Shown: piece after piece, positions 47,191 through 63,163 of the stretch | How positions within the stretch are numbered: the stretch's first letter is position 1 | How the letters are laid out: each line of letters begins with the position of its first letter | Virus record (IMG/VR): IMGVR_UViG_3300014204_000111 | Span: 32,001-96,000 of that record | Direction: 5' to 3' (one strand) | DNA: 64,000 nt | DNA from: a virus | Taxonomy: Duplodnaviria; Caudoviricetes | Translations under genes and position numbers: made by a program | Notes under the pieces: model-generated | What the model saw: only the letters and a program-made list of their open reading frames with translations | Told to the model about the DNA's origin: nothing | The model's database searches: none

Positions 47191-47525
47191 ACTACGTCTT
47201 AATTGAAAGGTTAAGAATATCGCACAGGGCAGCCTGGGGTGGTAAAATAGCTTAGAGAAGTTAGATGCCGCCAAGAGTGTTACTTGGCGGTTTTTGCTCC
47301 TGTGTTTAGGAACCTGCGAAAGTGGGTAAAATAAGACTAACAGCACCCAGAAGGCTTAGTTAGTGTCTTGTAACGGACAACTATCCTAAGTGCTTAGGAA
47401 AGTTTCCCATACTAAATGCCGACCACCTGGGTCTTTTATCTCGATATATCTCAGAAATTCTGCTATGGTTGTTAACCCTCTTATAAGAGGGCAGAGTGGA
47501 TTGTAAATTATCGAGTTTTCGTAGT
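47191..47525 (+). ncRNA. Large structured RNA of unknown class
   Basis: Many helices, two GAAA tetraloops, long-range pseudoknot, paired ends; no long + strand ORF. Confidence 0.6.
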
Positions 47526-47595
47526 CTCTTAGTTTAGCAGCAGAAACATTGCCTTGTCACGGCAAAGATAGCGAGGGCAGCACTCGTAGGGACTG
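47523..47595 (+). tRNA. tRNA-Asp(GTC), atypical T loop
   Basis: ttgcc-ttGTCac-ggcaa; acceptor AGTCTCT/AGGGACT. Confidence 0.8.
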
Positions 47596-47649
47596 TTTTA
47601 TTTTTAAAATTTGTTCATTGAAAATTGTTTGCAAATTATTAATAACAAT

Positions 47650-47929
47650 GCCCAGGTGGTGAAATTGGCAAACACAAGGGACTTACATAAAATTGAGCGT
47701 ATATAAAGGAATTTATATATGGATGTCGCCTAATTCGGTGAAACCTAAGTCAAAAGATATGGCAATACCGAGCCAAACTCTAATAAGAGAAGTGTGTAGA
47801 GACTATACAGCGACCATCCAGAACGGATGAAGATAGAGTCCAGACCCCAAACTTAACAGGTAGAGAAATCTATGGTGGTATGAAAATCCCTCGGCTTCGG
47901 TCTTACGGGTTCGATTCCCGTCCTGGGCA
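47650..47929 (+). tRNA. tRNA-Leu(TAA) interrupted by group I intron
   Basis: Exons 47650-47684 and 47883-47929 join to aggga-ctTAAaa-tccct. Confidence 0.9.
47685..47882 (+). mobile_element. Group I intron (198 nt, no ORF)
   Basis: Inserted after U34, ends in G; core AATTCGGTGAAACC, GTAGAGACTA, AAGATAGAGTCC. Confidence 0.9.
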
Positions 47930-48860
47930 TTTATTTTAAATTAGGAGATAATTATGGAGAAATCTTGTTGGTGGATAGAAGGTGGATTATGTTATTTAGA
48001 GCATAATCGTAGAAATACTACAGATGGACGTTCATGTGTTAAATGTAATGGTGTATGTAAGGGTTATATTTCTAAAAGAGAATTTCTTTCACAGTTTATT
48101 CCAAGTGATAAATTGATAATTATGAGCGAGGAAAGTAATATAAATGAAAATTCAATTGATTGTTTATGAAATTTTTGCATGTAATAGTCGTAGAATATTT
48201 CCAAGATTTCCATCTATTCCTCTTGGTGACAAAGTAGATTGTATAAAATTTATGATGATTTCTCATAATAATGTGGTTCCTTTATCAAAAATATGGAAAG
48301 CAACAAAGAGAAAAGAAGGTACACAATAAATGGATGTTAAATTAATTGCTCTTATTATTACGGCTATGGCAGACCATTATTTAGGATATGAATTTGATAT
48401 ACGTAACTTTTACCTTAAATATCATAAATCTATGAATCTTTGCTCAGGTAATAATTTAACTCATATTTGGTCACAGCTTGAACATAGAAGTATAAATTAT
48501 AAGCGGAGTGTAGAATGAAATTTTTATTTCCCAGGTTTATTGCTGTTGAAATGACACTAGGAACGTGGAAAGAAATTTGCCATTTAAATTTCTTTGATAA
48601 AAAATGTATGGCTTTAAATTATGTTTCAGGAACAACATTTTTATCTATGACAAGAATGTTAGAAGAGCTAAAAAAGCTTCTATAACACTGGAGAATACAA
48701 AGAAATGTATAGTATATTATGGTATATAAAATCTTCTATCTATATTAAGATAAAACGAGAATCAGGAATATCTCCTTCTTCTTTATCTCTTTACTGGAGA
48801 GTGTTATGTTTACTGAAAGGTGTTAATGTTTCCATAAATCTATAGCATATAAAATATCAA

Positions 48861-48935
48861 GGATGGTTATCACTCTGAGAGCGAGACAAGCTGTTAACTT
48901 GTTATAGGATAGTTTGATTCTATCACCATCCGCCA
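48861..48935 (+). tRNA. tRNA-Asn(GTT)
   Basis: acaag-ctGTTaa-cttgt, GCCA end. Confidence 0.85.
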
Positions 48936-48946
48936 TTTTTTTATGC

Positions 48947-49018
48947 GCCCTTAAAGCGTAGATAGCGACGCGGGACTCCTGTAAAGTTCAGAGAATTGTG
49001 CAAGTCAATTTGGGGGCT
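48947..49018 (+). tRNA. tRNA-Thr(TGT)
   Basis: ggact-ccTGTaa-agttc; acceptor begins GCC. Confidence 0.75.
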
Positions 49019-50325
49019 TTTGAACTCTAAATAAGGTAATAAAATGATGTTTTTTATTAAATTAATCAGTCTTAAAATTAGAGATTACAGAACATTTGGT
49101 TTAGAATTTAATGATTATTATCCTTATTATTGTTTGCGTAAACCATTTTTTAATCATGCATTATCAGTTTATTTTGACATCTTTATTAGGTCGATAAAAT
49201 CATGACATTATTTTTGCATTTAATTAGCACTATTTTACATATGAAGAAATTCAATCCTTATCGTAAATTTAATTATAATATAAGAGAGTGGAGAGTATTA
49301 TATCCTAAGCTTATATTTAATAATAAATATAAGAGCAGATATCCTCTAAAATTAAGTGATGTTCTTAGATGTATGAAAAATGAGAAGAAAAGTGTGTCTA
49401 GAAATAGAGCGTTTAAATGAAAATACGAATAATAGCTTTTATGATTAATAGGTTGTTCTGGAAAAAATATTTTAATATAACTCCTGAAGAAAAATTTCTT
49501 TCTCAGACTCAGTGTGGGATGGTTAATCCATTATCAACATTATGGAGATATTTAAAAAAGTGAAGATACAATTAATAGCATTTAAAATTATGTTGTTACA
49601 TCATGTTAAATCAAATAGGGGATTTAGCTTAACATTCTTTGATTTAAAGAAGATTAACCAAGAGTTAGACCATCGTTCAATGGGAATGAGAACAATTAAG
49701 TCTTTGTCTCTTTATTGGGGAGAAATTAAGTGCAAGAACTTTTATTCTTATAGTGTGCAAATATGATTTTTAAACTAATTGCTACGGTTATTTTATTAAG
49801 AACTTATCATTCACAACATCTTTCTCTTAGAGAGCATTATAAGGCTTATACTATTTTTATGTCTACAGATTTAGAATTACCATTGTCTGAACTACTTAAT
49901 CGTTTAAAAAGATGTCTGAGATAAATCGTTATAAGGAATCAATTAAATGAGATTGAAATTAATTGCTGTGATAATGGGTTTAATGTATATGGATAGATTG
50001 AAAGTTTATCGTAATGACTTATATAATCTTAGTAAAAATCCGGATATAAGTTTTTCTAGTGGCTTAGTAAACGTTTGGAAAATAATAAAGGAAGAGAGAA
50101 AGAGTAAAAGATGAAATTTAGATTAATTATTTTAATAATATGTATAATGTCTACACACCAAGGTAATAATATACATAAAATATTTGATTTATACGATATA
50201 TATGACTTAAGTAAAAATTCAAATTTCACTTTTATTAATAGCTTATCAAATATTTGGGAAGAAGTTAAATTATCAGGTGTTTGGGAAATTTAAACTAATC
50301 TCTATAGGTGTATGTGCGTTTCTCT

Positions 50326-50353
50326 GTTTAAAACCTCCTAGAACGGGTATAAT
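50326..50353 (+). promoter_or_regulatory. Phage promoter (SigB-like)
   Basis: GTTTAA-N13-GGGTATAAT, 7 nt before tRNA-Gly. Confidence 0.75.
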
Positions 50354-50360
50354 GAGTTAT

Positions 50361-50435
50361 GCGGGTATGATGTCAATGTCAGCATGGGGCGCTTCCAACG
50401 CCTTCGTCAGAGTTAGAGCCTCTGTATCCGCTCCA
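50361..50435 (+). tRNA. tRNA-Gly(TCC)
   Basis: gggcg-ctTCCaa-cgcct, TCCA end. Confidence 0.88.
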
Positions 50436-50448
50436 ATTTAGAGTTTAC

Positions 50449-50631
50449 GGGAGAGGTCTATAAGTCTCATTTTGAGGTATCAATTTTATACTCAATGAGT
50501 GTCACTCTTATAGATATGGTAAGTCCTACGGGCATCAATTTGGTGTAATGAGCACGCTCCCACAATTTGAAATACCTAAGATGCCTCCTGTGAGTTCCGT
50601 GGGATGGAGATGAGGTATGCCTTAACGGAAC
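50449..50631 (+). ncRNA. Candidate structured RNA(s) between tRNA-Gly and tRNA-Ala
   Basis: Closed multistem 50449-50561 plus pseudoknot 50572-50631. Confidence 0.45.
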
Positions 50632-50701
50632 CATAATGAGTATAACAAGAATTATACATAGGCTTTTTAGTTTGAAATTAAATATTTAAGGTAGTAAATA
50701 T

Positions 50702-50776
50702 GGGCGATTAGTGCTAATGGTAAAACATCTGCCCTGCAAGCAGAAATTATCAGTTCGACTCTGATATTGTCCACCA
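50702..50776 (+). tRNA. tRNA-Ala(TGC)
   Basis: tctgc-ccTGCaa-gcaga; G3:U70; ACCA. Confidence 0.9.
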
Positions 50777-51015
50777 ATTTAATAATATGGATATACAAAT
50801 AGTAAGAAAAATGATATGTTATAAAGCATCTTATTTATGGAATAGAGATTTTGATAAATATATAAGGACTTATTATGAGGATGGTAACTTTTATAGCGAA
50901 GGACATATGGGGTATTCTGAATCAATAAAAAAGACTTTTCGTAATTTAAAGATGGGAAGAGCAGCAATTAAGAGAAAAGAAATTTTTCCTATTTGGTATT
51001 ATGGATTTAAAAAAT

Positions 51016-51107
51016 GGAAGAGGAACCATACAAGCGCGCTGGCTTCGCCTTGAAAGCGAAAGGGACGTGTAAAAGCGTTTGGGGAGCGTGACCTCTCTCT
51101 TCCGCCA
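51016..51107 (+). tRNA. tRNA-Ser(TGA)
   Basis: ttcgc-ctTGAaa-gcgaa, variable arm, GCCA. Confidence 0.85.
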
Positions 51108-51560
51108 TTTATTTTAGGATAAACAATGAAGATAACAGACCCTAAATATGACCCAAGCAATGCCTTACATAGTGCATTCTTTGAACAACTGGAACTTTGA
51201 ACAACTGGAAGAGTTATGCCAAAATAATCCTGGTATAGAATATAGGTATGATTGGACAAGGGAGATTGGAACTGATGTTTGGTATCCCGTATTTTTAGGT
51301 ATGTCTGTGCGTATAAAGTTAAAGAGATATCCAGAAAATGCTGATTTGGAAATATAAATGATTAATAATAAAGAGGTATATAATTATGGAAGTGATTGTA
51401 GTTAGACAAAGAGACCAAGAAACTCTTGAAGAGCAAGATGTAAGAGTTTTTGTCTCTTCAGATGAAGCACAAGCAGTTTGCAATAAACTAAATGTTGAGT
51501 ATGAAGTTATTATTTTGGAAGAATTAATTTGTGGTGATTTTGAAAAAATTAGGAAAGAAT

Positions 51561-51635
51561 GACCTTATCGTATAGTGGTAATTACGATTCTCTGCAAAAG
51601 AATAGACAGTAGTTCGATTCTACTTTTGGTCTCCA
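51561..51635 (+). tRNA. tRNA-Cys(GCA)
   Basis: attct-ctGCAaa-agaat, U73, CCA. Confidence 0.85.
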
Positions 51636-51639
51636 ATAA

Positions 51640-51713
51640 TGGCCTGTAGTTTAATGGTAAAACTTCTGCTTTACACGCAGATGTTGGGGATTCGATTTCC
51701 TTCGGGCCAACCA
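51640..51713 (+). tRNA. tRNA-Val(TAC)
   Basis: tctgc-ttTACac-gcaga, ACCA. Confidence 0.88.
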
Positions 51714-51744
51714 TTTTAAATTTGTTGATTCCCGAACTATTTAT

Positions 51745-51831
51745 GGGAGAGCGTTGGAGTTAGAGAGCCAAGACAGACTGTAAATCTGTTCCCTTCGGGG
51801 TGAGTAGGTGCGAATCCTACCTCTCCCACCA
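51745..51831 (+). tRNA. tRNA-Tyr(GTA)
   Basis: acaga-ctGTAaa-tctgt, variable arm, ACCA. Confidence 0.9.
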
Positions 51832-51846
51832 TAAAGAGGTTTTATT

Positions 51847-52991
51847 ATGAATAGTTTTTTAAGTTTAATTGTATATTATTTTCGTATAAATGGATGGTTT
51901 CGTGGGGTTGATATTAAAGAAAAATTAGAATGGGTTTCATTTAAAAGAGTAAGACAACATCACAAAGCGCTTTTTTCCTCTTTATCTGAATGTTTAAATT
52001 ATCAGAAGAGAAAATAAATGTCTTTAAAAAGAATTTTTGATTGTGCTTTACTATGGTTTTTTAATGCAAGTGTTGGAGTAGAATATGAAGATATAGATGA
52101 AAAACAATATCTTCTTAAACATTTAAGAATGGCGCATATTGTTGAGCCTCTTACTGAATTATTAGTGTTAGCTAAGTTTAAGGAAGATTGTATTGAAAAA
52201 TAATCTTGAAAATGTTCTTTTATTGGCTTATAATTATTTTGTTTGGGGAGGAGTTATTAGTGATGATTGGCCTATGAAAAACAAATTATACTGGGTTAAA
52301 AATGAAGTATTAAAGGAGCTTCATTCTTTATCTTGGTATTTAGATTGGATTAAAAATCACATTAAGGAATTTTCAGAGTTATAAATATTAATGGTGGTTC
52401 GTCTAATTGGTAGCTGACCTTACCCTTTGAAGGTAAAGATGGGAGTTCGAGTCTCTCACCACCAGTTTTTTAAAATACTAATATGCCCAATAATGGTGCA
52501 ATTTATGAATATAATAAAGAGAATTAGAGATATAATTATAAGTAAAGCTAGGAATACTTTGATTGGACAAAATTTTGCATTGCTTCATTTTATCTCTTTA
52601 TCTTCTATGTTACATATTATCAAGGCAAATAAATGATATTCACACAATTAGTTTGTTTAAAAATGTTCCACAAATCTCAAAAATACGAAATACCTTTCGT
52701 AGAGGCGTATTATACTTGTAAAAGACATAGGCTTCATCATTATACATGGCAACAAAAAATAAAAGAATCTTGGAATATACTGTATAGACAAGCAATTCAT
52801 AGGAACAAATTATGTTAAAACAATTTCTTAGGTTGTGTGTCGTTACAATATTTAATCATAGATATGGTGGACGTTTACAATACAACAACCGACAACTTGT
52901 ATCAGTATGTTTTCGCTTTGGTAAATGTAGATTAATATTCGGGTTATCTTATTATTTAGAATCTTTGATACGATTTAGTCAAAATAAATAA
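51847..52991 (+). other. Second block of related microprotein ORFs
   Basis: 51847-52017, 52018-52203, 52193-52384, ~52492-52636, 52633-52818, 52812-52991; LSxxL-type C-terminal helix in most. Confidence 0.55.
52392..52465 (+). tRNA. tRNA-Gln(TTG)
   Basis: ttacc-ctTTGaa-ggtaa; U1-A72, G73. Confidence 0.88.
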
Positions 52992-52999
52992 AATTATAT

Positions 53000-53071
53000 G
53001 TCTCTTTAGTTTATATAGTAAAACAAGAATCTCCAAAATTTTAGAAGTCTGTGCAAGTCGGACAAGAGGCG
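53000..53071 (+). tRNA. tRNA-Trp(CCA)
   Basis: agaat-ctCCAaa-atttt; G73. Confidence 0.8.
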
Positions 53072-53099
53072 TTTGAAATTTCTCTGTGTTGGGTATAAT
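53071..53099 (+). promoter_or_regulatory. Phage promoter (SigB-like)
   Basis: GTTTGA-N14-GGGTATAAT. Confidence 0.75.
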
Positions 53100-53149
53100 A
53101 ATGTGTGCTGGTGACGGTTCATCGTCTTAAAGCTAGTGCCAGCCATTTC

Positions 53150-53220
53150 GCCCCGGTAGTTTAACAGAAGAACATAAGACCTTCAATCTTAGAGTCGGAG
53201 TGCGATTCTCCGTCGGGGTA
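53150..53220 (+). tRNA. tRNA-Glu(TTC)
   Basis: taaga-ccTTCaa-tctta. Confidence 0.8.
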
Positions 53221-53222
53221 AT

Positions 53223-53840
53223 TTACTTTTTAATTGGAATCGGTTCTTTTAAATTATGATGGACTTCCCAATGACAGTTAGGACAAACTAGCATTAAGTT
53301 AGTAGGAGAATTGACAACAGAAAGTAATTCGTTGATATCGAATTCTGGAATAGGTTTAATATGATGAATTTCAACATAATTAGAATATCCACAACAAGAA
53401 CAGACCATTGGAAGTTGCATTTTTTTAATTAATACTCTTGCTAATTCTCTTATTCTAGCATTTTTATTTTTGCTAGTAAGAACCTCTGAGATGGTTATAT
53501 CTTGTTTATTTATTATGGCTATTTTATGCGGTCTACATTCTGGACAATATTTTCTATTAGACCTGATTGGAGTATCACAAATAAAACACCTACCTTCTAA
53601 TGGACGAACACCCGTTGTTCTAGTTAAATTGGTATGAGTACCAGAACAAGATTGAGAACAAAATTTTTGTCTATTATCTGTTGCAATAAAATGTTTATTA
53701 CATTGTAAGCAATATTTATCTGGGATTGCTTTCCATAATTTATAGCAATCAGAAGAACAAAAATGATGGGTATATTTATTTGCATCTGAAGGTTTTCTTT
53801 CAAAAGTTTTTTGACATTGGGTGCAAGTGAGTTGTATCAT
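53223..53840 (-). CDS. HNH endonuclease with Cys-rich repeats
   Basis: C..C...F, FCS..C repeats; EIHHIK, NLMLVCPNCHWEVH; probable start 53840. Confidence 0.88.
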   Translation of the reverse strand: MIQLTCTQCQKTFERKPSDANKYTHHFCSSDCYKLWKAIPDKYCLQCNKHFIATDNRQKFCSQSCSGTHTNLTRTTGVRPLEGRCFICDTPIRSNRKYCPECRPHKIAIINKQDITISEVLTSKNKNARIRELARVLIKKMQLPMVCSCCGYSNYVEIHHIKPIPEFDINELLSVVNSPTNLMLVCPNCHWEVHHNLKEPIPIKK

Positions 53841-54748
53841 AGTAATAGTATTTTTACCCATATTTTAAGTTCGAACCCCATCCGCGCTGCTTTATTTTTT
53901 AATAGAAACTATCTTTTAAATTAAAGGAACCATTAATGTTTGTAGCAGATTATATTTATAGATATGTACATGATGAACAACCTGATGCTTGTTATGATTT
54001 GGGAAGAGCATTTATCAATATTGTTAATTGTATTGAAGCAGATGAAGGGTTTTATTCTGATGGACAAGAATTTCATAGAATTAGACCTCAATTTAGGGAT
54101 AATTATCCAAAATATTTCTTAACTGGCAATAATGTTGCTATGGAAATTAGAAATGACCGTGCTGATGGTAGAACACTTATTGCCTATTTTACGAGAGAAA
54201 GAGTTTGGGATATGAGAGATGACTTAATTTTAGATGAAAAAGGATTTCTTTTAAAAATTATTAAATATTATGATTAAGTGGAGAATAAAATGATTTATGT
54301 GTATATTGATGAAGATTCTGGACGTTTAGCTATTCAGAAAGGTAAAAAACTTAAGAGAGATGAAACAAATGTATATTGGTCTCCAGAAGTAAAGAGTAGC
54401 GGAAATGCTAAATGGAAGTATGACGAAACGAATTTTGAAGAATGGATTGCTGGTCTAGTTGAATTTTTAAATGAATAGTTTTAATAAGTTCTTATTGATA
54501 ATTGTCGATACATTTATCTATCATGGTAATTTTAAATTTTTATCATTATCGGAATATTTAGAATATCTAAAAAAAGGAGGTTAATATGCGAATTTTTATT
54601 GTTTGTCTTGTGGCTCTTTTCTGTCTTGGCTCTTTAGTTGCCTGTAATACCAAGAATGTTGGTAACGAAGGAACTACAGCGGCCACGAATTAAATAGTAA
54701 TGAAGAGAGAAATCTCATTTCTATTCTAAAGTATATATTATCCATCAA

Positions 54749-54821
54749 TCCGACGTAGTGTAAAAGCTTAGCACATCAAGTTGTGGACTTGGGAGAGTGG
54801 GAGCGTTACCCACCGTTGGTA
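54749..54821 (+). tRNA. tRNA-His(GTG)
   Basis: tcaag-ttGTGga-cttgg. Confidence 0.75.
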
Positions 54822-54827
54822 ATTTAT

Positions 54828-54904
54828 GCTCGCGTAGTTTAATTGGATAAAATTCGGAGTTGTGTCCTCCTGAGATTTCAGTTCGAATCTGAACGCTTGT
54901 ACCA
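54828..54904 (+). tRNA. Atypical or degenerate tRNA, GTG anticodon
   Basis: Canonical D and T arms, ACCA end, mismatched acceptor stem. Confidence 0.55.
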
Positions 54905-54906
54905 TT

Positions 54907-55692: not shown

Positions 55693-55720
55693 GTTTTGAA
55701 AACGCTCTACGGGGTATAAT
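55693..55720 (+). promoter_or_regulatory. Phage promoter (SigB-like)
   Basis: GTTTTG-N13-GGGTATAAT. Confidence 0.7.
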
Positions 55721-55725
55721 TATAC

Positions 55726-55899
55726 ACCAGGAGATGCTCATAGGGTAAATGGGCGATGGAGTTTCTAAGCGGTCAAGAGGTAATAGATAGACACGAAGCG
55801 GCTTCCAGTTGTTTTGTGAACTTTTGATAGTCGGTAGAGACTCTTTGATTATCTCTGTAATCTTAAATCAAAAGAATGGTTCGAATCCTTCCCCTGGTA
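55726..55899 (+). ncRNA. 174-nt tRNA-like RNA with greatly extended anticodon arm
   Basis: ACCAGG/CCTGGT acceptor, 6-bp D stem, GGTTCGAATCC T arm. Confidence 0.65.
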
Positions 55900-56088
55900 T
55901 TTTTATGAATATATTAAAAGAATACTCATTTTTAATTACAAGAATAATGTGGTCTATTGTTTGTAATAGACATACACACCCAAGAATACGTTATTTTATG
56001 CGTGATAATCCTGCAAGTGTGCATAAAAATTGGGTTTTACTTAAAAGAATATTCTCCCAAATAATAAGGGATGTACAGGAGTATCGTG

Positions 56089-57081
56089 ATGATTAATAGA
56101 TTTCCTCATATTGCTAGATTGGGGTCAAGAGAAAGTGAAGGAGTTTTTGACTCTGATGTACAAATAACCGAAAAAATCGACGGCTCTACGTTTGCTTTTG
56201 GTAAACTTCATGGTAAAGTTCGTATGAGAACTAATTCTCAAGAGATTCAATTAGGACAACATCCTGAAATGTTTCGTAACGCTGTTATGGTTGTTCAAGA
56301 ATTGAAAGATAGACTTCCTGAAGATGTTATCTTCTATGGAGAGTATCTTCGTAAGAATCGTCACAATGCTTTAACTTATGGTCGTATCCCTAAGAACCAT
56401 ATTATGATTTTCGGTATTCTCGCTAATGGTGAATGGATTACTGATTATAATAAAATGGCTGCTTATGCTGAATCTTTTGGTTTTGAGTCTGTTCCTCTAT
56501 TATTTCAAGGAAAAGTTACATCTTTTAAAGATATTGAGCCTTTGTTAGAAGGTGAAAGTATTCTTGGTGGAAGGATGGAAGGTGTTGTTATCAAGAACTT
56601 TGCTCAAACCATGCATTATAAAGATAAAGAGCAATTGCAGTTTATCAAGTTTGTTAACGATAGTTTTAAAGAAGTCCGTCACATTTCCAAAGATGCAAAG
56701 CAAATTGGACGTTTGGGTGAAACTCTACAAACTAAAAGCAACCTAGATGGTTTGCAATTGGATTTAGATATTCTGACTCAGGCATTTGTGACGGACGCTC
56801 GTTGTCATAAAACTATTCAGCATCTTCATGAAGATGGAAAGTTAAAACTTGATTATTGTGATTTTCCAGTGTTAATGAAAGAATTGGCTTCTGATTTTAT
56901 TTCTGAAGAGAAACTTTCTTGTATTGAAGAGCTAAAGAAATTATTGGTTGGTCGTTGTGATGAAAGACTCATTGACCAATCGGCAGATAATTTGTGGAAA
57001 CAGATTTTTTCTAAGCAAGTTTGTAAAGCTCTTCAACATAAAATGACTGGTATTTATAAAGCTTGGCTGCTGGAGAGATAA
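56089..57081 (+). CDS. RNA ligase (Rnl2-like)
   Basis: TEKIDGS, FYGE, FG, VPLL, EGVVIK, KFV. Confidence 0.8.
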   Translation: MINRFPHIARLGSRESEGVFDSDVQITEKIDGSTFAFGKLHGKVRMRTNSQEIQLGQHPEMFRNAVMVVQELKDRLPEDVIFYGEYLRKNRHNALTYGRIPKNHIMIFGILANGEWITDYNKMAAYAESFGFESVPLLFQGKVTSFKDIEPLLEGESILGGRMEGVVIKNFAQTMHYKDKEQLQFIKFVNDSFKEVRHISKDAKQIGRLGETLQTKSNLDGLQLDLDILTQAFVTDARCHKTIQHLHEDGKLKLDYCDFPVLMKELASDFISEEKLSCIEELKKLLVGRCDERLIDQSADNLWKQIFSKQVCKALQHKMTGIYKAWLLER

Positions 57082-57083
57082 TT

Positions 57084-58100
57084 ATGAATATTCAAGAAAT
57101 ACAAGAGAATGCAAAAGAATATATTAAGGAAGTTATTGAGGTTCCAACAGGCCACATTTTGATTATTCAAGGTGAACACGGCCTGTTGGAATGTTTGTCT
57201 CTTTCTGATTATGGAAAAGAAAAGAATGTTAAAGCATCTTTTCTTGGATTAGAGAATGATATTAATGGCGTTATTCACGGAGAGATGTTACCATTAGAAG
57301 ATAAATGGGTAATTACTATTTCTTCTCAATATGGTTGCTCAATGGGATGTAAATTCTGTGATGTTCCTAAAGTTGGCCCAGGACGTAATGCAACAGAAAC
57401 AGATATTCTTCGTCAATTCTTTGCGGTAATGTCTCTTCATCCTGAAGTAAAGAGTTCAAGAATTAATCTACATTATGCTAGAATGGGAGAGCCTTCATTT
57501 AATCATACGAATGTAATAAAGTCAGCTTGTAAACTGTCTCTCTGGTTTAAAAAAACTAATTATCAGTTTCATCCAGTTGTTTCCACTATGATGCCTAAAA
57601 ATAATACTTATCTACGTAATTTCTTATATAATTGGATGCAGTTTAAAGAAGATAATGATGGTGAAGCGGGACTTCAATTAAGTATTAACTCTACTGATAG
57701 AGAACAAAGAAAGAATATTTTTGGTGGAACAGCATCAAATTTAGATTCAATTAGCTCTTTAGTTGAATTTTTACCTGTTTCTCGTCGAAAGATTGCTCTT
57801 AATTTTGCTCTATGTTCTGATTCTATTATTGATGCAAAAGAGTTAAAGAGGCTCTTTAGTCCTGATAAGTTTATGTGCAAAATTACACCAATGCATGAAA
57901 CAAAAGCTTGTGAAGTAAACAATCTCCATACTCCAGAAGGATATAGCTCATTTGTTTCTTATAAGCCTATTGAAGAGGCTCTAAAAGCAGAAGGGTTTGA
58001 TGTTATTGTCTTTGTTCCTTCTCTTGAGGAAGATAAAGGAAGAATTACTTGTGGTAACGCTATTCTAAGTGATGAAAGATTTAAGGAGATAAATAAATGA
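57084..58100 (+). CDS. RlmN/Cfr-like radical SAM RNA methyltransferase
   Basis: ISSQYGCSMGCKFC, MGEP, LSINS, C-terminal TCG. Confidence 0.8.
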   Translation: MNIQEIQENAKEYIKEVIEVPTGHILIIQGEHGLLECLSLSDYGKEKNVKASFLGLENDINGVIHGEMLPLEDKWVITISSQYGCSMGCKFCDVPKVGPGRNATETDILRQFFAVMSLHPEVKSSRINLHYARMGEPSFNHTNVIKSACKLSLWFKKTNYQFHPVVSTMMPKNNTYLRNFLYNWMQFKEDNDGEAGLQLSINSTDREQRKNIFGGTASNLDSISSLVEFLPVSRRKIALNFALCSDSIIDAKELKRLFSPDKFMCKITPMHETKACEVNNLHTPEGYSSFVSYKPIEEALKAEGFDVIVFVPSLEEDKGRITCGNAILSDERFKEINK

Positions 58101-58593
58101 TACCACTATGGGCTATTTGGATTGTTTGTATTAGCTTAATTTTGTTAACAGCAAGAATTTGGCTCCCTATTTTAATTGTTGTTTTTACTCTTTTTGTATC
58201 AGTGATAGCTATAATAATGCAATTGATAGGAGACGCATTTCAGTGGTGGGCTGATTTATTTAAATAATGTTAAGACAATTTATCATTAAAATAGTATATG
58301 TTGTCTATTGGAAGAATACATTGTCCCATAGAGATATACCAGGAGATATATTTTTTAGGTATAAATGTTATAAATATGCTAAAACTACGTCTGGTTTTTT
58401 TAGCGCTGCACAAACATCCTCTGGATTTAAGAAGTTAAAAAACAAGGTATTGCATGGATAAATTTTTAAAATCGATTTTTTCTATTTTTAGAAAAAATCA
58501 TAGACTATTGTTACTCTATAATTATGTAAGTTTGAAAAATTCTTTTGATGATAGGATTTTTTGGGCTAAAAGAAACAGGGATATGTGAATCCT

Positions 58594-58621
58594 GTTTAGA
58601 ATCGTGTGGGTTGGGTATAAT
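58594..58621 (+). promoter_or_regulatory. Phage promoter (SigB-like)
   Basis: GTTTAG-N13-GGGTATAAT. Confidence 0.75.
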
Positions 58622-58630
58622 ATAAAACAA

Positions 58631-58705
58631 GGGAAGATAGCTCAATTAGTAGAGTGCTAGATTGAAACTTTGGTGACATTGGTGCAATTCCATTTCTTCC
58701 CACCA
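58631..58705 (+). tRNA. tRNA-Phe(GAA)
   Basis: ctaga-ttGAAac-tttgg, ACCA. Confidence 0.85.
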
Positions 58706-58712
58706 TAATTTC

Positions 58713-58790
58713 GGGCCTATAGCTCAGTTGGTTTAGAGCAGCAAACTCATAATTTGTTGGTGGTAGGTTCGAGTCCTATTAGGCCCACCA
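58713..58790 (+). tRNA. tRNA with CAT anticodon, likely Ile2 (or elongator Met)
   Basis: GGGCCTATAGCTCAG..ctCATaa; GGGCCTA acceptor typical of Ile2. Confidence 0.88.
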
Positions 58791-59046
58791 CTTAATTTTA
58801 GGAGAAATATATGAAGAGAGAAATTTGGATGGCAAGCAAGGCGTTGAAAGGTGCGATTGAAACTCTTAATGCTTTATTTTGTTCAAGTGATAAAGAGAAA
58901 CAAATCAGCAAAAAACAAAAGAATCAATTGGTCAATTTGTTATGCGAGGACTTATCTCAAATGATGTTAGAAGATGCTTATGATATTATCAAAGAAGCTC
59001 TTAAGCAGAAGACTATTCAGACAGGTCATTAATATATCGTGGGAGA

Positions 59047-59826
59047 TTAAAGAGAGAATCTATCTTGTATATCTCTAATTGTTAGAGGTATTATTCCTGG
59101 GGAATGGTCTAGTTCCCAATGACAATTAGGACATAAGATAGTTAGGTTTTCAAGAGCATTAACTTCTGATATTTTAGCATCTTTTGGAAACGAAGAGACA
59201 GATTTGATATGGCATATTTCTACGTGCTTACCATATCCACAATTTGAACATTTCATATCTTGAACTTTGACATTAAATATAAAGAGGATAATTCTTTTAG
59301 CGTGTTCTCTAATTCTAGAAAAGACGTTTGTAGAATATTTAGACTTATGAATAACTGCCTCTAAAGTTATATCTCCAAAATCATTATTAGGTAAAGGAAT
59401 ATGTTTTGTATTTTCTCCAAAACAAGCAGGGGTAGTTGGAATTCTAGAAGAATAATATTTTTTTCTACATTTTGGACAATATTTGTTACTTCTAGGGATT
59501 GATTCTCCACATTCAATACATTGTCCTAAAGGTTGCATTCTTTTTCGTGGAGTATGAGCGTTATTATAAATTGCTCCACAAGTTTGTGAACAGAATGTGT
59601 TGGTTATTTTAGTTAAACTAGAAATTGTTCTAATAATTTCTGTGCCACATTGTTTACAATGTGTTCTTATATTTTCTTTTTGAGAAGCATCTATAAAACA
59701 TTGCATTGTACAATAGTTATTATCACCAAGGTCTTTTCGATATTTGATAAATTCAATATCGCAATGGTCACATTTGACTAGAATGGTTTTATCCGTTAGT
59801 TTTAAAGGTTTACGTGTTCTTTGCAT
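59047..59826 (-). CDS. HNH endonuclease with Cys-rich repeats (paralogue of 53223-53840)
   Basis: CSNCGY..HVEICHIK, NLTILCPNCHWELDH. Confidence 0.88.
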   Translation of the reverse strand: MQRTRKPLKLTDKTILVKCDHCDIEFIKYRKDLGDNNYCTMQCFIDASQKENIRTHCKQCGTEIIRTISSLTKITNTFCSQTCGAIYNNAHTPRKRMQPLGQCIECGESIPRSNKYCPKCRKKYYSSRIPTTPACFGENTKHIPLPNNDFGDITLEAVIHKSKYSTNVFSRIREHAKRIILFIFNVKVQDMKCSNCGYGKHVEICHIKSVSSFPKDAKISEVNALENLTILCPNCHWELDHSPGIIPLTIRDIQDRFSL

Positions 59827-59880
59827 AGTATACTACTTTACCCATTTTTTACAGGTTCAAATCGTGAATATCTGATAGTT

Positions 59881-59909
59881 GTTTGAGATGTCACTGACAA
59901 GGGTATGAT
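59881..59909 (+). promoter_or_regulatory. Phage promoter (SigB-like)
   Basis: GTTTGA-N14-GGGTATGAT. Confidence 0.7.
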
Positions 59910-59919
59910 ATTACATCAA

Positions 59920-59995
59920 CCGCAGAGGGAAGGCTCAGTTTAGCCTCGAAATTCTTATAAAATTTTATACTTTCGTGCAACTCGAAATCTGCGGA
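59920..59995 (+). tRNA. Atypical tRNA with TAT anticodon (Ile-UAU)
   Basis: CCGCAGA/TCTGCGG acceptor, aaatt-ctTATaa-aattt, tttcg-tgcaact-cgaaa. Confidence 0.7.
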
Positions 59996-60344
59996 CTTAA
60001 TTTAAATATAACCTTGAAGGAATATAATATGAGTAAAGTGGAGAACTAAAGGTTTCAATAAATAGTTAATAAACCCAGTAAGTGTTAATGATTTCTTTAA
60101 CAAACATAGTGAATTTAACAAAAATATAAGTAATAATATTATGGAGAAAATAGATAAACAATATAAACCATTGAAAGATATGATAACTAAGTCAATAAAA
60201 GAAAATCAGACACTTACTAATATGGGTTTATGAAGTTTAATTTAGGAGTATCAATGCTTATTTTATGGTTTAGTATTGGATTTATAATTGGAGTGATTGT
60301 TGGCGGAGCATTTGTTGTAGGTGTGTTAGAAGGATTTTAAATAA

Positions 60345-60429
60345 GGTAGGATATGCAAACTGGTTAAGCGGCATATCTGATAAGTATGTGGAGCAATCCG
60401 TGTTGGTTCGAATCCAACTCCTACCACCA
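60345..60429 (+). tRNA. tRNA with GAT anticodon (Ile) and long variable arm
   Basis: catat-ctGATaa-gtatg; GGA-GCAA-TCC arm; ACCA. Confidence 0.85.
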
Positions 60430-61275
60430 TTAAATATAAAGAGAGAAAGAAATGACACTAAATCGTTTTAAAGATAAATTATTTATATGGTATTCCATGA
60501 ATTTTTCTGTAGGTTGGTGGATTTTAAAAAAAGAAAACCATAAAGGTTTATTAGATTCTAAACGAAAGTTTATAACTAGATGGGGAATGGGCTGTTATAT
60601 GCCAAAAAAATCATTAGTTATTGTTTTTCATGTTCCACGATTTAAGCCATATAAAACTAAGTTCCAAGCAGAGGAAGTTATTTCAGATTTTCTTCATGCA
60701 ATAAATAAGGATAAAGTAGGTTAATAGAATGACAAAAAGAGATTGGCTGTGGGTTCTATTTTGGTTAGGATTTTTAACTAGTGGATTAACATGGATAGCA
60801 GGATGTATCGTCTATATATACAGTGAAGAGCAAAAGACATTTGGCTTGTTGTTGTTTGGATTCTTTTAGTTAATCCTAAGAATCCAGAAGAGGTTAAGCC
60901 TGTATATGTTGAAGCAAGAGTTATTGTAAGTCCGTTTAAACTAGAGTAATAGGTTATAATAATGAAAAAAGAAGATGTTAAAAAACTTTTAGATAAGCAA
61001 ACAACATATTCTTCTGAAGAAGGCTTCCTTGTAGCAGAAGAGAGCGCGAAAGAGAGCGCTCTCTCTATGGTATTATCTTTAACGACCACAATAGAGCCTT
61101 ATTTTGATACCACTCTAGATAATGGAGTTGATATATATTACGATACTAATAACAATGAATTACAAATTCATTGTCCTCCTCTTGGTTCTTCAAATTTTTA
61201 TTGTTTTACTAATATCAATGGTAAACGTAAATTAACTAGAAACCCTTCTCATGAAGAACTGGTTGAATTTTTAAT

Positions 61276-61341
61276 GCTTCTGTAGTACAAAAGATAGTAT
61301 ATTGGTCTACGAAACCGAAGATGCAATTTCTTTCAGAAGCT
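61276..61341 (+). tRNA. Truncated tRNA-Arg(ACG)
   Basis: Perfect acceptor GCTTCTG/CAGAAGC, ttggt-ctACGaa-accga; variable/T region shortened. Confidence 0.6.
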
Positions 61342-62022
61342 CTTTATATTTTAGGAGTTAATTATGACCAAAATGTATAAATGTATTGACTGCGGAGTTG
61401 ATACACAGAAGATTGATGAATATTACATTGTTCACAATTGGGTATGGAATGAAGCAATGCCAATGACTCCAATAAATGCTATTTATATTGAGGATGGGAA
61501 AGTAAAAACAGATGTTCTTTTAAGACAAGGGAAAGGAATGCTTTGTATTGGTTGTCTTGAGAGAAGACTCAGACGTAAGTTAACTAAGAAAGATTTCCTA
61601 GATTGTCCTGTTAATACAGATAATAAAAGATGGCCTAAGAGCAAAAGATTAAGAAAGAGGATGAAGAGATGATTTCACCTTTTAGACATGAAATTGGTAG
61701 AAGTAGAATTTACAGTCAAGAGCAAAGTCCTAGAGTTTTTGAAGTTTGGATTGAATTAGAAGATGGAAGTCAATATCCTTATAGAGGTAACTACAGTAAA
61801 CCTGTTAGCAAACCATATAGAGATAGATGGCTTAAAAACGAACAAGAAGGGTATGACGGATTGAATCCTAGAAAGTTAAATTCAAAACCTAAAAGAATAT
61901 TTATTTTAGAAGTTTGGTTAGAAGTCGTCGAGGTACGTGAAATATGATTGATATACTTGTTTATCATTATTTTGATGATTCTATCTTTGTGGTAGATTTC
62001 TATCGTTAAATAAAGAGAAGTT

Positions 62023-62050
62023 GTTTGAGCCGTTTCGTTCTGGGTATAAT
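62023..62050 (+). promoter_or_regulatory. Phage promoter (SigB-like)
   Basis: GTTTGA-N13-GGGTATAAT. Confidence 0.75.
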
Positions 62051-62269
62051 AAGTCAGTGCGAAATAAATATACAGGTATAAATAAATGACATATAAAGAG
62101 GCAAGAGAAAAGCAAGATTTATTGTTTGCTACATATCCTTATCTTCCAGTTAAGATGTGGCAAAATAATAAGGGAGAATGGATTTTATCTATTGAGGAAA
62201 ACCTTGTTACATCACAGAATGTAGATTCTTATTTATATTTACAAGAAACAAAGAGTTGGGGATAAAGAA

Positions 62270-62551
62270 ATGTTAAAACTTAGATTATGGTTAGATGATG
62301 TTCGTCCTGCTCCAATCCTAGATAGTTGGATGGTAGCAAAGAATTATCAAGAGGCAATTACTTTAATTGATAAATATACGTTCTTTCTTTGCTCTTTAGA
62401 CCATGATTTAGGTGAAGAGAAAGATGGTGCTGATGTTTTACAGTATATGATAGATAATGATAAGGTTCCTGAATTGGTATTGATTCATTCTAAGAATCCT
62501 GTTGGAGTTGCAGAAATGAATAGAATGCTAAATCGTTATTGGGATAAATAA
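62270..62551 (+). CDS. Cyclic-phosphate-processing receiver-domain protein
   Basis: LWLDDVRPAP, SLDHDLG, IHSKNPVG. Confidence 0.75.
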   Translation: MLKLRLWLDDVRPAPILDSWMVAKNYQEAITLIDKYTFFLCSLDHDLGEEKDGADVLQYMIDNDKVPELVLIHSKNPVGVAEMNRMLNRYWDK

Positions 62552-62812
62552 ATGGATATTAAACAAACTCTTATTGCAATGCTTGATTTAAAAGATAAAA
62601 TAGACAAAAGAAAAGATATTTTATGTCAACGTATATCTCCGTCTATATTATATACATATCTTCTTTATAATAAAGATAAAGAGTATGCTGATTTGCTAAA
62701 TCAATTTAATCAGTTAAGAATTGATTTAGCTCATTCTTTAGAAAACTCATATGAAAGTATGGGCGATTTATTAGATTATGTAAAAAGTTCGATAGATTCT
62801 AAGTAAAGCCGT

Positions 62813-62840
62813 GTTTGAGACTCTTCATCTTGGGTATAAT
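62813..62840 (+). promoter_or_regulatory. Phage promoter (SigB-like)
   Basis: GTTTGA-N13-GGGTATAAT. Confidence 0.75.
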
Positions 62841-62845
62841 AACAT

Positions 62846-62951
62846 GCGAGACAAAACTGACGGCTATGACGCACACCGCAATCATGGTTGATAACCTAAT
62901 AAATCTATGACTTGGCTCCGTTGATAGAAATGGAGAAGTAGCGTTTCTCGT
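62846..62951 (+). ncRNA. Candidate ~105-nt structured RNA
   Basis: Starts at predicted TSS; GCGAGA/TCTCGT closing stem; two internal hairpins. Confidence 0.45.
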
Positions 62952-62961
62952 TCTATAATAT

Positions 62962-63036
62962 GTCCCCGTGGTGTAAAGAATAGCATACGACTCTTCTAAA
63001 GTCTTGGATAAGGTTTGATTCCTTACGGGGATACCA
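62962..63036 (+). tRNA. tRNA-Arg(TCT)
   Basis: gact-ctTCTaa-agtc, ACCA. Confidence 0.85.
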
Positions 63037-63068
63037 TTTTAAATCATTTTGTAAATATAAATAATTAT

Positions 63069-63148
63069 GGAAGCAAAGCTCATTTGGATTGAGCATTCGA
63101 CTTTTAATCGAAAGGTAGGTTTGGGTTCGAATCCCCCTGCTTCCACCA
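63069..63148 (+). tRNA. tRNA-Lys(TTT), enlarged variable region
   Basis: ttcga-ctTTTaa-tcgaa, ACCA. Confidence 0.8.
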
Positions 63149-63163
63149 AATTAACTATTATAT

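What the first reader, a model, noticed from the sequence alone, without database searches (positions are those of the whole stretch)
47523..63036. Systematic compensatory rewriting of the tRNA elbow (D-loop 18/19 with T-loop 55/56)
Established: G18-U55 and G19-C56 are near-invariant in tRNAs. Seen: ten tRNAs have G55 in the T loop (TGCAA/TGCGA/AGCGT/GGCAG) and all have AG rather than GG in the D loop. They are Asp, Thr, Ser-TGA, Tyr, Trp, Glu, His, Phe, Ile-TAT and Arg-ACG. Arg-TCT and (less clearly) Asn have D-loop GA with T-loop TTTGA (A19-U56). Gly has D-loop GT with TTAGA (U19-A56). His and Ser-TGA also swap 54/58 to A54/U58. tRNAs with TTCG keep GG. Inference: this is selection for a folded L-shape with altered elbow sequence rather than decay. 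It may evade host elbow-reading nucleases, modification enzymes or T-loop-targeting mobile elements.
Basis: partly seen in the sequence, partly recalled or inferred. Interest (0 to 1): 0.75.

Follow-up and report, generated by a model that had tools for sequence, protein, structure and literature searches.

The report
Phage tRNAs with an alternative elbow
Ten transfer-RNA genes of this 221-kb uncultured phage build the corner of the L-shaped molecule from a matched A18/G55 pair instead of the near-universal G18/U55; they look like working tRNAs of a widespread design I could not find described, not decaying copies.

Summary
The window holds 10 tRNA genes with G at T-loop position 55 (an 11th lies just past the window). 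All have A-G where other tRNAs have G18-G19. All 14 tRNAs with TTCGA loops keep GG (0/11 against 13/13 tabulated, Fisher p = 4e-7). Asn and Arg-TCT carry A19-U56 and Gly carries U19-A56.

The pairing is general. IMG/VR tRNAs picked only by an A18 D-arm have G55 in 41 of 45 cases. Those picked only by a G55 T-arm have A-G and no GG in 25 of 28. In bacterial genomes the figure is 31 of 34. A complete 640-kb Nealsonbacteria genome uses this elbow in its only tRNA-Cys and only tRNA-Phe(GAA), so it works in ordinary translation.

The T-loop UGCRA with an inserted adenosine matches the UGNRA T-loop and intercalating A known from riboswitches.

So these are functional tRNAs on an alternative, probably isosteric elbow. 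It is an inherited design class, not a rewriting peculiar to this phage. Evasion of T-loop-cutting nucleases or of modification enzymes is plausible but untested. Arg-ACG and Ser-TGA look damaged.

This scan has already reported the same elbow on many other genomes. I found no paper describing it.

The parts
47523..47595 (+). tRNA-Asp(GTC), G55 class. T-loop GGCAGCA (G54 G55 C56 A57 G58). A18 at 47539, G55 at 47577.
   Evidence: 21/21 stem pairs. Rfam tRNA 38.0 bits, with A and G aligned to model G18 and G19 and G to U55. G73 and C38 present.
48947..49018 (+). tRNA-Thr(TGT), G55 class. T-loop TGCAAGT, D-loop AGATAGCG. A18 at 48964, G55 at 49000. C33 and A8 are unusual.
   Evidence: 21/21 stem pairs in the structure-only scan. 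Not found by ARAGORN default or by Rfam.
51016..51104 (+). tRNA-Ser(TGA), G55 class. T-loop AGCGTGA (A54/U58). Long variable arm, G73, encoded CCA. Weak D stem.
   Evidence: Acceptor 7/7, anticodon stem 5/5, T stem 4/5, D stem at most 3 pairs. Not found by Rfam. Lower confidence.
51745..51828 (+). tRNA-Tyr(GTA), G55 class, bacterial-type long variable arm. T-loop TGCGAAT, D-loop AGTTAGAGAG. A18 at 51762, G55 at 51810.
   Evidence: 21/21 pairs. Rfam 39.6 bits. An IMG/VR Tyr (L216) has the same D-loop and T-arm but different stems.
53000..53071 (+). tRNA-Trp(CCA), G55 class. T-loop TGCAAGT, D-loop ATATAGTA. A18 at 53017, G55 at 53053. G73.
   Evidence: 21/21 pairs. Rfam 45.4 bits.
53150..53220 (+). 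tRNA-Glu(TTC), G55 class. T-loop TGCGATT, D-loop AACAGAA. A18 at 53166, G55 at 53202. C33.
   Evidence: 21/21 pairs. Rfam 52.8 bits with alignment.
54749..54821 (+). tRNA-His(GTG) #1, G55 class. T-loop AGCGTTA (A54/U58), D-loop AAAAGCTTA. It lies 6 nt upstream of the canonical-elbow His #2.
   Evidence: 20/21 pairs. Rfam 37.6 bits. Infernal's D-loop placement is ambiguous.
58631..58702 (+). tRNA-Phe(GAA), G55 class. T-loop TGCAATT, D-loop AATTAGTA. A18 at 58648, G55 at 58684. A73 and encoded CCA.
   Evidence: Rfam 58.7 bits with alignment. Belongs with a set of 22 other A18/G55 tRNA-Phe sequences from IMG/VR and bacterial genomes that show heavy compensatory change.
59920..59995 (+). tRNA-Ile(TAT), G55 class. 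T-loop TGCAACT. Irregular D arm (G8 G9; alternative 5-bp stem with loop CAGUUU).
   Evidence: 20/21 pairs. The minimum-energy fold gives acceptor, D and T arms. Not found by Rfam. Lower confidence.
61276..61341 (+). tRNA-Arg(ACG), G55 class but truncated. T-loop TGCAATT, D-loop AAAAGATA (A20 kept). About 6 nt are missing between the anticodon loop and the T loop. A53-U61.
   Evidence: Rfam 34.3 bits with a 6-column deletion. Probably damaged.
48861..48932 (+). tRNA-Asn(GTT). 19-56 swapped to A19-U56. D-loop TCTGAGA, T-loop TTTGATT.
   Evidence: 20/21 pairs. Found by ARAGORN default. Not found by Rfam.
50361..50432 (+). tRNA-Gly(TCC). 19-56 swapped to U19-A56. D-loop CAATGTCA, T-loop TTAGAGC.
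   Evidence: 21/21 pairs. Not found by Rfam.
62962..63033 (+). tRNA-Arg(TCT). 19-56 swapped to A19-U56. D-loop AAAGAATA, T-loop TTTGATT.
   Evidence: Rfam 47.8 bits. 20/21 pairs.
47650..47929 (+). Comparator: tRNA-Leu(UAA) with canonical elbow (AATTGGCAA / TTCGATT), split by a group I intron at 47685-47882.
   Evidence: Rfam RF00028 69.8 bits. Sequence read.
50702..52465 (+). Comparators with GG / TTCGA: Ala 50702-50773, Cys 51561-51632, Val 51640-51710, Gln 52392-52465. They are interleaved with Ser-TGA and Tyr of the G55 class.
54828..54901 (+). Comparator: tRNA-His(GTG) #2 with GG / TTCGAAT, but two mismatches in the acceptor stem.
   Evidence: Rfam 37.1 bits. Parse.
58713..58787 (+). Comparator: tRNA-Met(CAT) with GG / TTCGAGT. 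It starts 7 nt after the CCA of the G55 tRNA-Phe.
   Evidence: Rfam 68.1 bits..
60345..60426 (+). Comparator: tRNA-Ile(GAT) with GG / TTCGAAT and a 13-nt variable arm.
   Evidence: Rfam 51.8 bits..
63069..63234 (+). Comparators: two tRNA-Lys(TTT) with GG / TTCGA.
   Evidence: Rfam 51.7 and 68.8 bits.
56071..57081 (+). Context: RNA ligase gene inside the tRNA island.
   Evidence: Pfam PF09414, E = 5.5e-19. PHROG 548 'RNA ligase', E = 1.2e-23.

Best explanation
These are working tRNA genes built on a second, matched version of the tRNA elbow.

In ordinary tRNA, G18 slides between bases 57 and 58 of the T-loop and bonds to pseudouridine 55, while G19 pairs with C56 to form the flat outer face. 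Here the T-loop is U54-G55-C56-R57-A58 and the inserted base is A18. This is the same combination (a UGNRA T-loop plus an intercalating adenosine bonded to the G at loop position 2) that riboswitches use. [quoted passage not shown]

G19-C56, or a Watson-Crick swap of it, is kept. The outer face read by RNase P, the ribosome and other elbow binders is therefore preserved, while the inner 54-55 site is changed.

Shown here:
- strict 18/55 and 19/56 covariation in this phage;
- the same covariation in both directions in IMG/VR and in bacterial genomes;
- intact, compensating stems;
- a non-redundant anticodon set;
- use as the only tRNA-Cys and only tRNA-Phe(GAA) of a complete CPR genome.

Inferred: the 3-D geometry (A18 intercalated and bonded to G55). 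Position 55 cannot become pseudouridine, because it is not a uridine. Enzymes and nucleases that need U54-U55 should not act on these tRNAs.

The design was most likely inherited or acquired from a wider pool, not invented in this phage. Arg-ACG and perhaps Ser-TGA are damaged members.
For: In this phage:
- 0/11 G55 tRNAs against 13/13 U55-C56 tRNAs have GG in the D-loop (p = 4e-7). The A-G lies at the GG offset.
- The structure-only scan gives 20 cloverleaves, against 0 on the other strand and 0 in shuffles.
- G53-C61 is kept in 10/11.
- Only His is duplicated between the two classes. Together the 28 tRNAs cover 19 amino acids.
- G55 and canonical genes lie 4-8 nt apart in tandem.

Elsewhere:
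- An A18-only selection in IMG/VR gave G55 in 41/45.
- A G55-only selection gave A-G without GG in 25/28.
- Bacterial genomes gave 31/34.
- 22 unique A18/G55 tRNA-Phe sequences have 371/374 stem cells paired, with many pair types.
- The complete Nealsonbacteria genome has TGCAA loops in its sole Cys-GCA, sole Phe-GAA, Thr-GGT and one of two Met-CAT tRNAs.

Literature:
- UGNRA T-loops take an intercalating A that bonds to the sugar edge of the G at position 2, and UGNAA is favoured (bioRxiv 10.1101/2022.12.26.521914).
- A57 is likewise favoured here (7/11 against 0/14).
- In tRNA, residue 18 intercalates between 57 and 58, and 19-56 is the exposed face (PMC4810234).
- The Rfam TYMV tRNA-like model has a GGGUGCAACUCCC T-arm and a CAGU D-loop.
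Against: - There are no expression, charging or structural data for any of these RNAs.
- No RNA run is listed for this phage.
- No close relative with a tRNA island could be fetched, so conservation of these particular genes is untested.
- Five of the variant tRNAs are invisible to the Rfam model.
- Several carry further oddities: C33 in Thr and Glu, G8 in Ser-TGA and Ile-TAT, no G-1/C73 in His, a deletion in Arg-ACG. Part of the set may be non-functional or specialised.
- Minimum-energy folds of Thr, Ser-TGA and Arg-ACG are not cloverleaves.
Confidence: 0.75

Rival explanations
1. Adaptive evasion. The A18/G55 elbow is kept because it removes the U54-U55 site. These phage tRNAs would then survive host T-loop-cutting immune nucleases (Cash/Schlafen type), or escape host T-loop enzymes, and keep translation going during infection. 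This adds a selective reason to the best explanation and does not replace it.
For: - CbCash cuts tRNA just 5' of U55, and single changes of U54 or U55 abolish cutting (PMC13462974).
- Phage tRNAs are known to neutralise tRNA-cutting defences through changes in the anticodon loop (PMC10264068, PMC11464382, PMC11555353).
- An RNA ligase gene sits in the tRNA island, which fits a conflict over tRNA damage.
- The design is common in phage contigs.
Against: - Only 11 of 28 tRNAs carry it, so a pan-tRNA T-loop nuclease would still cripple the set.
- The same elbow serves core tRNAs of a free-living CPR genome, where phage evasion is not the point.
- The host is unknown and no nuclease has been tested.
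- CbCash also cuts anticodon loops.
Confidence: 0.3
2. Neutral alternative. A18/G55 is simply an allowed, equally good solution that arises now and then and spreads by gene transfer among phages and small genomes, with no special benefit.
For: - The distribution is sporadic. Among 290 unselected neighbour tRNAs in viral loci, 2.4% have G55.
- Only 2 of 121 sampled Patescibacteria carry the A18 D-arm pattern.
- Canonical and variant tRNAs are mixed in this phage.
- No phage-encoded partner was found: no TruB, CCA-adding enzyme or Schlafen domain.
Against: G18 and U55 are near-invariant in cellular tRNAs, so a truly neutral alternative should be commoner in ordinary bacteria. Earlier notes of this scan report phages in which nearly every tRNA is converted (not checked here).
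Confidence: 0.35
3. Decay. The variant tRNAs are pseudogenes that are drifting away from the consensus.
For: - Arg-ACG has a 6-nt deletion and A53-U61.
- Ser-TGA has a weak D stem.
- Five variants fail the Rfam model.
- Seven of the 11 G55 genes lack an encoded CCA, although many of the phage's other tRNAs have one.
Against: - Both partners change together in 11 of 11.
- Stems are intact, and no comparable cloverleaves appear in shuffles.
- The anticodons are not duplicates of the canonical set.
- The same pair recurs with compensatory stem changes in unrelated tRNAs and in essential single-copy tRNAs.
Confidence: 0.05
4. Not for decoding. The variant tRNAs act as decoys, sponges or regulators, like the many tRNA-like RNAs of this phage, and are not substrates for translation.
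For: Earlier notes on this genome describe Y-RNA-like and tmRNA-like tRNA mimics. A tRNA-like hairpin beyond the window also has a TGCAAGT loop.
Against: - They have complete anticodon arms whose anticodons complement the canonical set.
- Identity elements known from E. coli (from my own knowledge) are present: G73 in Asp, Trp and Ser; A73 in Phe, Tyr and Ile; A20 in both Arg tRNAs; long variable arms in Tyr and Ser.
- The same elbow is used in sole-copy cellular tRNAs.
Confidence: 0.08

Closest known systems
Canonical bacterial and phage elongator tRNA elbow (G18-Psi55, G19-C56, T54-A58; Rfam RF00005)
   Same: Same cloverleaf, same loop sizes, G53-C61 closing pair, G19-C56 outer pair, and the inserted base at the same D-loop offset.
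   Different: 18/55 is A/G instead of G/U, so pseudouridine 55 is impossible. A57 is preferred over G57. Some members have G54/G58 or A54/U58.
UGNRA-type T-loop with an intercalating adenosine in FMN and cobalamin riboswitches (bioRxiv 10.1101/2022.12.26.521914), plus the 'unique rRNA T-loop' GGAAG noted there
   Same: Same five-base motif (U-G-N-R-A, with UGNAA favoured). The adenosine donor inserts between loop positions 4 and 5 and bonds to the G at position 2. The GGCAG loop of tRNA-Asp parallels GGAAG.
   Different: In those RNAs the motif docks other loops in non-tRNA folds. Here it sits in a full tRNA with the 19-56 pair and an anticodon. The geometry in these tRNAs is inferred, not solved.
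Valine-accepting tRNA-like structure of turnip yellow mosaic virus (Rfam RF00233)
   Same: The model consensus has a UGCAA T-loop and an A-G D-loop. Its D/T-loop association is described as nearly identical to that of tRNA (PMC4810234), with a D-loop adenosine contacting the T-loop (PMC6265322).
   Different: It is a pseudoknotted 3' end of a plant RNA virus genome, not a free tRNA. The phage CAT tRNA scores only 19.9 bits against a 40-bit cut-off.
Staphylococcal non-proteinogenic tRNA-Gly (PMC4574755)
   Same: Natural bacterial tRNAs that lack G18-G19.
   Different: Per PMC4574755 they have U18-U19 or C18-U19 and lack U55 and C56. They donate glycine for cell-wall pentaglycine synthesis instead of decoding. 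The phage tRNAs keep a matched pair and span many amino acids.
Phage tRNAs that neutralise tRNA-cutting defences (PMC10264068, PMC11464382, PMC11555353)
   Same: Phage-borne tRNA variants whose sequence differs at the site a nuclease reads.
   Different: The known cases change the anticodon loop or stem. Here the change is in the elbow, and no nuclease has been tested.

Membership tests
tRNA (Rfam RF00005) | Cloverleaf with 7/4/5/5-bp stems and 7-nt anticodon and T loops | tested here: met
   At least 20 of 21 pairs for Asp, Thr, Tyr, Trp, Glu, His#1, Phe and Ile-TAT, and for Asn, Gly and Arg-TCT. No hits in shuffles. Ser-TGA and Arg-ACG fall short.
tRNA (Rfam RF00005) | Score at or above the 29-bit gathering threshold | tested here: inconclusive
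   Met by Phe 58.7, Glu 52.8, Trp 45.4, Tyr 39.6, Asp 38.0, His#1 37.6, Arg-ACG 34.3 and Arg-TCT 47.8. Thr, Ser-TGA, Ile-TAT, Asn and Gly gave no hit even at E <= 10.
tRNA (Rfam RF00005) | Near-universal G18, G19, U55, C56 | tested here: not met
   This is the finding itself: A18/G55 in 10 window tRNAs, and A19-U56 or U19-A56 in 3. G19-C56 is kept in all G55 tRNAs.
tRNA (Rfam RF00005) | U33 and a readable anticodon | tested here: met
   U33 in 8 of the 10 window G55 tRNAs; C33 in Thr and Glu.
tRNA (Rfam RF00005) | Processed, aminoacylated and used on the ribosome | not testable with these tools
   No RNA data. Indirect support comes from the sole-copy Cys and Phe tRNAs with this elbow in a complete CPR genome.
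UGNRA T-loop / adenosine-receptor motif | Loop positions 1-5 read U-G-N-R-A | tested here: met
   TGCAA or TGCGA in 7 of the 10 window G55 tRNAs (8 of 11 in the genome). The others are GGCAG and AGCGT.
UGNRA T-loop / adenosine-receptor motif | An adenosine intercalates between positions 4 and 5 and bonds to G2 | not testable with these tools
   At sequence level an A is present at position 18 in 11 of 11. The 3-D contact is inferred from riboswitch structures.
TYMV-type tRNA-like structure (RF00233) | Model score at or above 40 bits, and a pseudoknotted acceptor at a viral RNA 3' end | tested here: not met
   Best hit 19.9 bits, E = 0.11. These genes have ordinary paired acceptor stems.
Staphylococcal non-proteinogenic tRNA-Gly | Gly anticodon with U18-U19 or C18-U19 | tested here: not met
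   The phage Gly has G18-U19 paired to A56. The G55 tRNAs are not Gly (PMC4574755).

The most novel reading that the evidence does not exclude
The A18/G55 elbow is an immunity-proof or orthogonal tRNA chassis. By deleting the U54-U55 site while keeping the outer G19-C56 face, phages would field a pool of decoding-competent tRNAs that T-loop-cutting defence nucleases (Cash/Schlafen type) and host T-loop enzymes cannot touch. The mixed set in this phage would then mark which tRNAs its host attacks.
Probability: 0.25. Interest if true: 0.85.

Novelty: new variant of a known kind. Interest (0 to 1): 0.6.

Why it matters
G18 and pseudouridine 55 are taught as universal tRNA features, and gene finders, modification enzymes and some immune nucleases rely on them. 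A natural, matched alternative has several consequences:
- Annotations of phage tRNA sets are incomplete. ARAGORN default found 4 of the 10 here, and Rfam at its gathering score on the whole window also found 4.
- tRNA design has a second workable elbow that could serve for orthogonal or nuclease-resistant tRNAs.
- The idea that phages harden their tRNAs against elbow-directed attack becomes directly testable with simple transcripts and a published nuclease.

This phage is a moderate example, with 11 of 28 tRNAs converted. Earlier notes of this scan report phages in which almost all are.

Tried and rejected
Looking for relatives with a tRNA island:
- Megablast of the island against cultured phages found no match. 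Distant blastn found only generic tRNA hits.
- The search for related loci with the RNA ligase or the terminase alone found nothing.
- The terminase alignment gave viral contigs of at most 29% identity.
- The single metagenome scan gave one 49%-identical terminase locus, L427, with no tRNA. Its record is not held for whole-record search.
As a result, conservation of these particular genes in a sister phage was not tested.

Expression: no RNA holder is listed. A groundwater run holds only short fragments identical to this phage.

Link to loss of the pseudouridine-55 synthase: TruB_N was not found in the complete CPR genome that has G55 tRNAs. However, it is present in 90 of 121 sampled Patescibacteria, and the A18 D-arm pattern occurs in only 2 of 121, one of them with TruB. 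No usable correlation came out.

Phage-encoded partner: no CCA-adding enzyme, TruB or Schlafen domain was found.

Minimum-energy folding of the Rfam-negative tRNAs was not decisive.

Literature: searches for A18 with G55 in tRNA, for G55 with phage, and in the tRNA-array and non-canonical-tRNA papers gave no description of this elbow. The original TYMV structure paper could not be opened under the id I tried.

Full report
**What the window is.** The window is bases 32001-96000 of a 220,861-bp IMG/VR virus record with direct terminal repeats. GC content is 31.5%. The sequence was recovered from a landfill metagenome, and traces of the same phage occur in a groundwater run. It has a terminase, a portal and head proteins. 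It has no close cultured relative.

**Checking the observation.** I therefore scanned for cloverleaves by base pairing alone.
- With at least 20 of 21 stem pairs, the genome gives 20 hits on the + strand, none on the - strand and none in five shuffled genomes.
- Looser parsing and hand inspection bring the catalogue to 28 tRNAs, 27 of them in the window.
- Ten window tRNAs have G at T-loop position 55: Asp, Thr, Ser-TGA, Tyr, Trp, Glu, His#1, Phe, Ile-TAT and Arg-ACG. An eleventh (anticodon CAT) lies 7.2 kb past the window end.
- Their T-loops are TGCAA/TGCGA (8), GGCAG (Asp) and AGCGT (His#1, Ser-TGA).
- Every one has A-G 3-4 nt into the D-loop, where the canonical tRNAs have GG, and none has GG.
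- All 14 tRNAs with TTCGA loops have GG (0/11 against 13/13 tabulated, Fisher p = 4.0e-7).
- Infernal alignments to the Rfam tRNA model put the A on G18, the G on G19 and the T-loop G on U55. The exception is His#1, where the D-loop placement has low posterior and would break the 19-56 pair.
- Asn and Arg-TCT read G18-A19 with U56. Gly reads G18-U19 with A56.

**Quality of the individual genes.**
- Strong members, with Rfam scores of 37-59 bits and full pairing: Phe, Glu, Trp, Tyr, Asp, His#1 and the CAT tRNA.
- Thr and Ile-TAT have perfect or near-perfect cloverleaves but fail the Rfam model. They carry extra oddities: C33 and A8 in Thr, and G8-G9 with an irregular D arm in Ile-TAT.
- Ser-TGA has a weak D stem.
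- Arg-ACG lacks about six bases between the anticodon loop and the T loop and is probably damaged.
- Glu also has C33.
- G53-C61 is kept in 10 of 11.
- Identity elements known from E. coli (my own knowledge) are in place: G73 in Asp, Trp and Ser; A73 in Phe, Tyr and Ile; A20 in both Arg tRNAs; long variable arms in Tyr and Ser.
- Only His occurs in both elbow classes. Together the tRNAs cover 19 amino acids.
- Variant and canonical genes lie 4-8 nt apart, so they must share transcripts and processing.

**Is the covariation general?** I tested it in both directions on public data.
- An IMG/VR scan for a D-arm that forces A18 (TAGCTCANNNAGTAGAGC) and says nothing about the T-loop returned 80 loci. 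Of these, 45 parse as full cloverleaves and 41 of the 45 have G55.
- A scan for a G55 T-arm (GTAGGTGCRANNCCTAC) gave 28 unique parseable tRNAs. Of these, 25 have A-G and no GG in the D-loop, and one more reads A18-G19 after a GG.
- Among 290 unselected neighbour tRNAs in the first set, 7 (2.4%) have G55. Six of the 7 show the A-G.
- G54 goes with G58 in all GGC loops. A57 is favoured in G55 loops.
- U56 goes with G-A, and A56 with G-T.
- The same D-arm scan of one genome per prokaryote species gave 31 of 34 with G55, many from Patescibacteria.
- In 22 unique A18/G55 tRNA-Phe sequences, 371 of 374 acceptor, anticodon and T-stem cells pair, with three to seven pair types at most positions. This is the signature of selection on a working fold.

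**Does it work in translation?** A complete 639,534-bp Nealsonbacteria chromosome has 45-46 tRNAs. Its only Cys-GCA, its only Phe-GAA, its Thr-GGT and one of two Met-CAT tRNAs have TGCAA T-loops with A18. Its Leu-TAA has G56 with a D-loop that reads G18-C19. An organism cannot do without tRNA-Phe and tRNA-Cys, so this elbow serves normal decoding. It also shows that the design is not confined to phages.

**How it most likely works.** In tRNA, residue 18 stacks between 57 and 58 and touches residue 55, and the 19-56 pair forms the exposed face used by RNase P, the ribosome and T-boxes (PMC4810234). T-loops outside tRNA are mostly UGNRA, with UGNAA favoured. The base that stacks between loop positions 4 and 5 is almost always adenosine, which bonds to the sugar edge of the G at position 2. 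[quoted passage not shown] The phage loops UGCAA/UGCGA with A18, and GGCAG in Asp, are these same solutions placed in a tRNA. The Rfam model of the valine-accepting tymovirus tRNA-like structure also has a UGCAA T-loop and an A-G D-loop. That element is reported to have a D/T association nearly identical to tRNA, with a D-loop adenosine contacting the T-loop. I infer that A18/G55 is an isosteric elbow that keeps the outer face and changes the inner 54-55 site. This step is inference from analogous structures, not shown for these tRNAs.

**Consequences and rivals.** Position 55 cannot be pseudouridine. A published CRISPR-associated Schlafen nuclease cuts tRNA just 5' of U55 and is blocked by single changes of U54 or U55 (PMC13462974). 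Phage tRNAs are known to defeat anticodon-directed defences. An RNA ligase gene sits in this tRNA island. Evasion is therefore a reasonable selective story, and I give it about 0.3. Against it, two thirds of this phage's tRNAs keep TTCGA, and the elbow also serves cellular core tRNAs. A neutral, horizontally spread alternative is about as likely. Decay is excluded for the class but is likely for Arg-ACG. A link to loss of TruB was not borne out. The phage encodes no TruB, CCA-adding enzyme or Schlafen domain.

**Novelty.** Searches of the held literature for A18 with G55 in tRNA, and reading of the reviews on non-canonical tRNAs, the T-loop and tRNA arrays, found no description of this elbow. 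Earlier notes of this scan report the same A18/G55 elbow in well over a hundred other genomes, so it is not new to the scan. This phage is a mosaic, moderate example. I class it as a new variant of a known kind: a tRNA that uses a known T-loop solution.

Noticed in passing
window 47650-47929: tRNA-Leu(UAA) is split by a 198-nt ORF-less group I intron (47685-47882, Rfam 69.8 bits). The intron is inserted between U34 and A35. The 5' exon ends in U and the intron ends in G, the same site as the cyanobacterial/plastid trnL intron (the site comparison is from my own knowledge).
   Followed up: partly
window 48947-49018 and 53150-53220: tRNA-Thr(TGT) and tRNA-Glu(TTC) have C33 instead of the near-universal U33 (anticodon loops CCTGTAA and CCTTCAA).
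   Followed up: no
window 60345-60426: tRNA-Ile(GAT) carries a 13-nt variable arm, like a class II tRNA.
   Followed up: no
window 54749-54901: Two adjacent tRNA-His(GTG) genes, one with a G55 elbow and one canonical. Neither has G-1 or C73 (both have A73). The canonical one has two acceptor-stem mismatches.
   Followed up: partly
window 53223-59826: The tRNA island also holds an RNA ligase (56071-57081), a radical-SAM-like protein of PHROG 24834 (57063-58100) and two HNH endonuclease genes on the - strand (53223-53861, 59047-59826).
   Followed up: partly
IMG/VR loci L023-L102 and this window: There are secondary covariations inside the T-loop. G54 always goes with G58 (GGCAG/GGCGG). A57 is preferred in G55 loops, while G57 dominates in TTCGA loops.
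   Followed up: partly
G000:C1 about 98440-98520, 103095 and 103912 (beyond the window): T-arm-like hairpins sit behind TGGGTATAAT promoters. One has a TGCAAGT (G55-type) loop. They belong to the tRNA-like RNAs described in earlier notes on this genome.
   Followed up: no
G001 (Nealsonbacteria chromosome CP179888.1): No TruB_N domain was found in this complete 640-kb genome, although 90 of 121 sampled Patescibacteria have one. Its tRNA-Leu(TAA) has a TTGGAGT T-loop with a D-loop that reads G18-C19 (a C19-G56 swap).
   Followed up: partly
window 47523-63237: 16 of the 27 tabulated tRNAs in the genome encode their 3' CCA, but only 4 of the 11 G55 tRNAs do. The phage has no CCA-adding enzyme domain.
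   Followed up: partly
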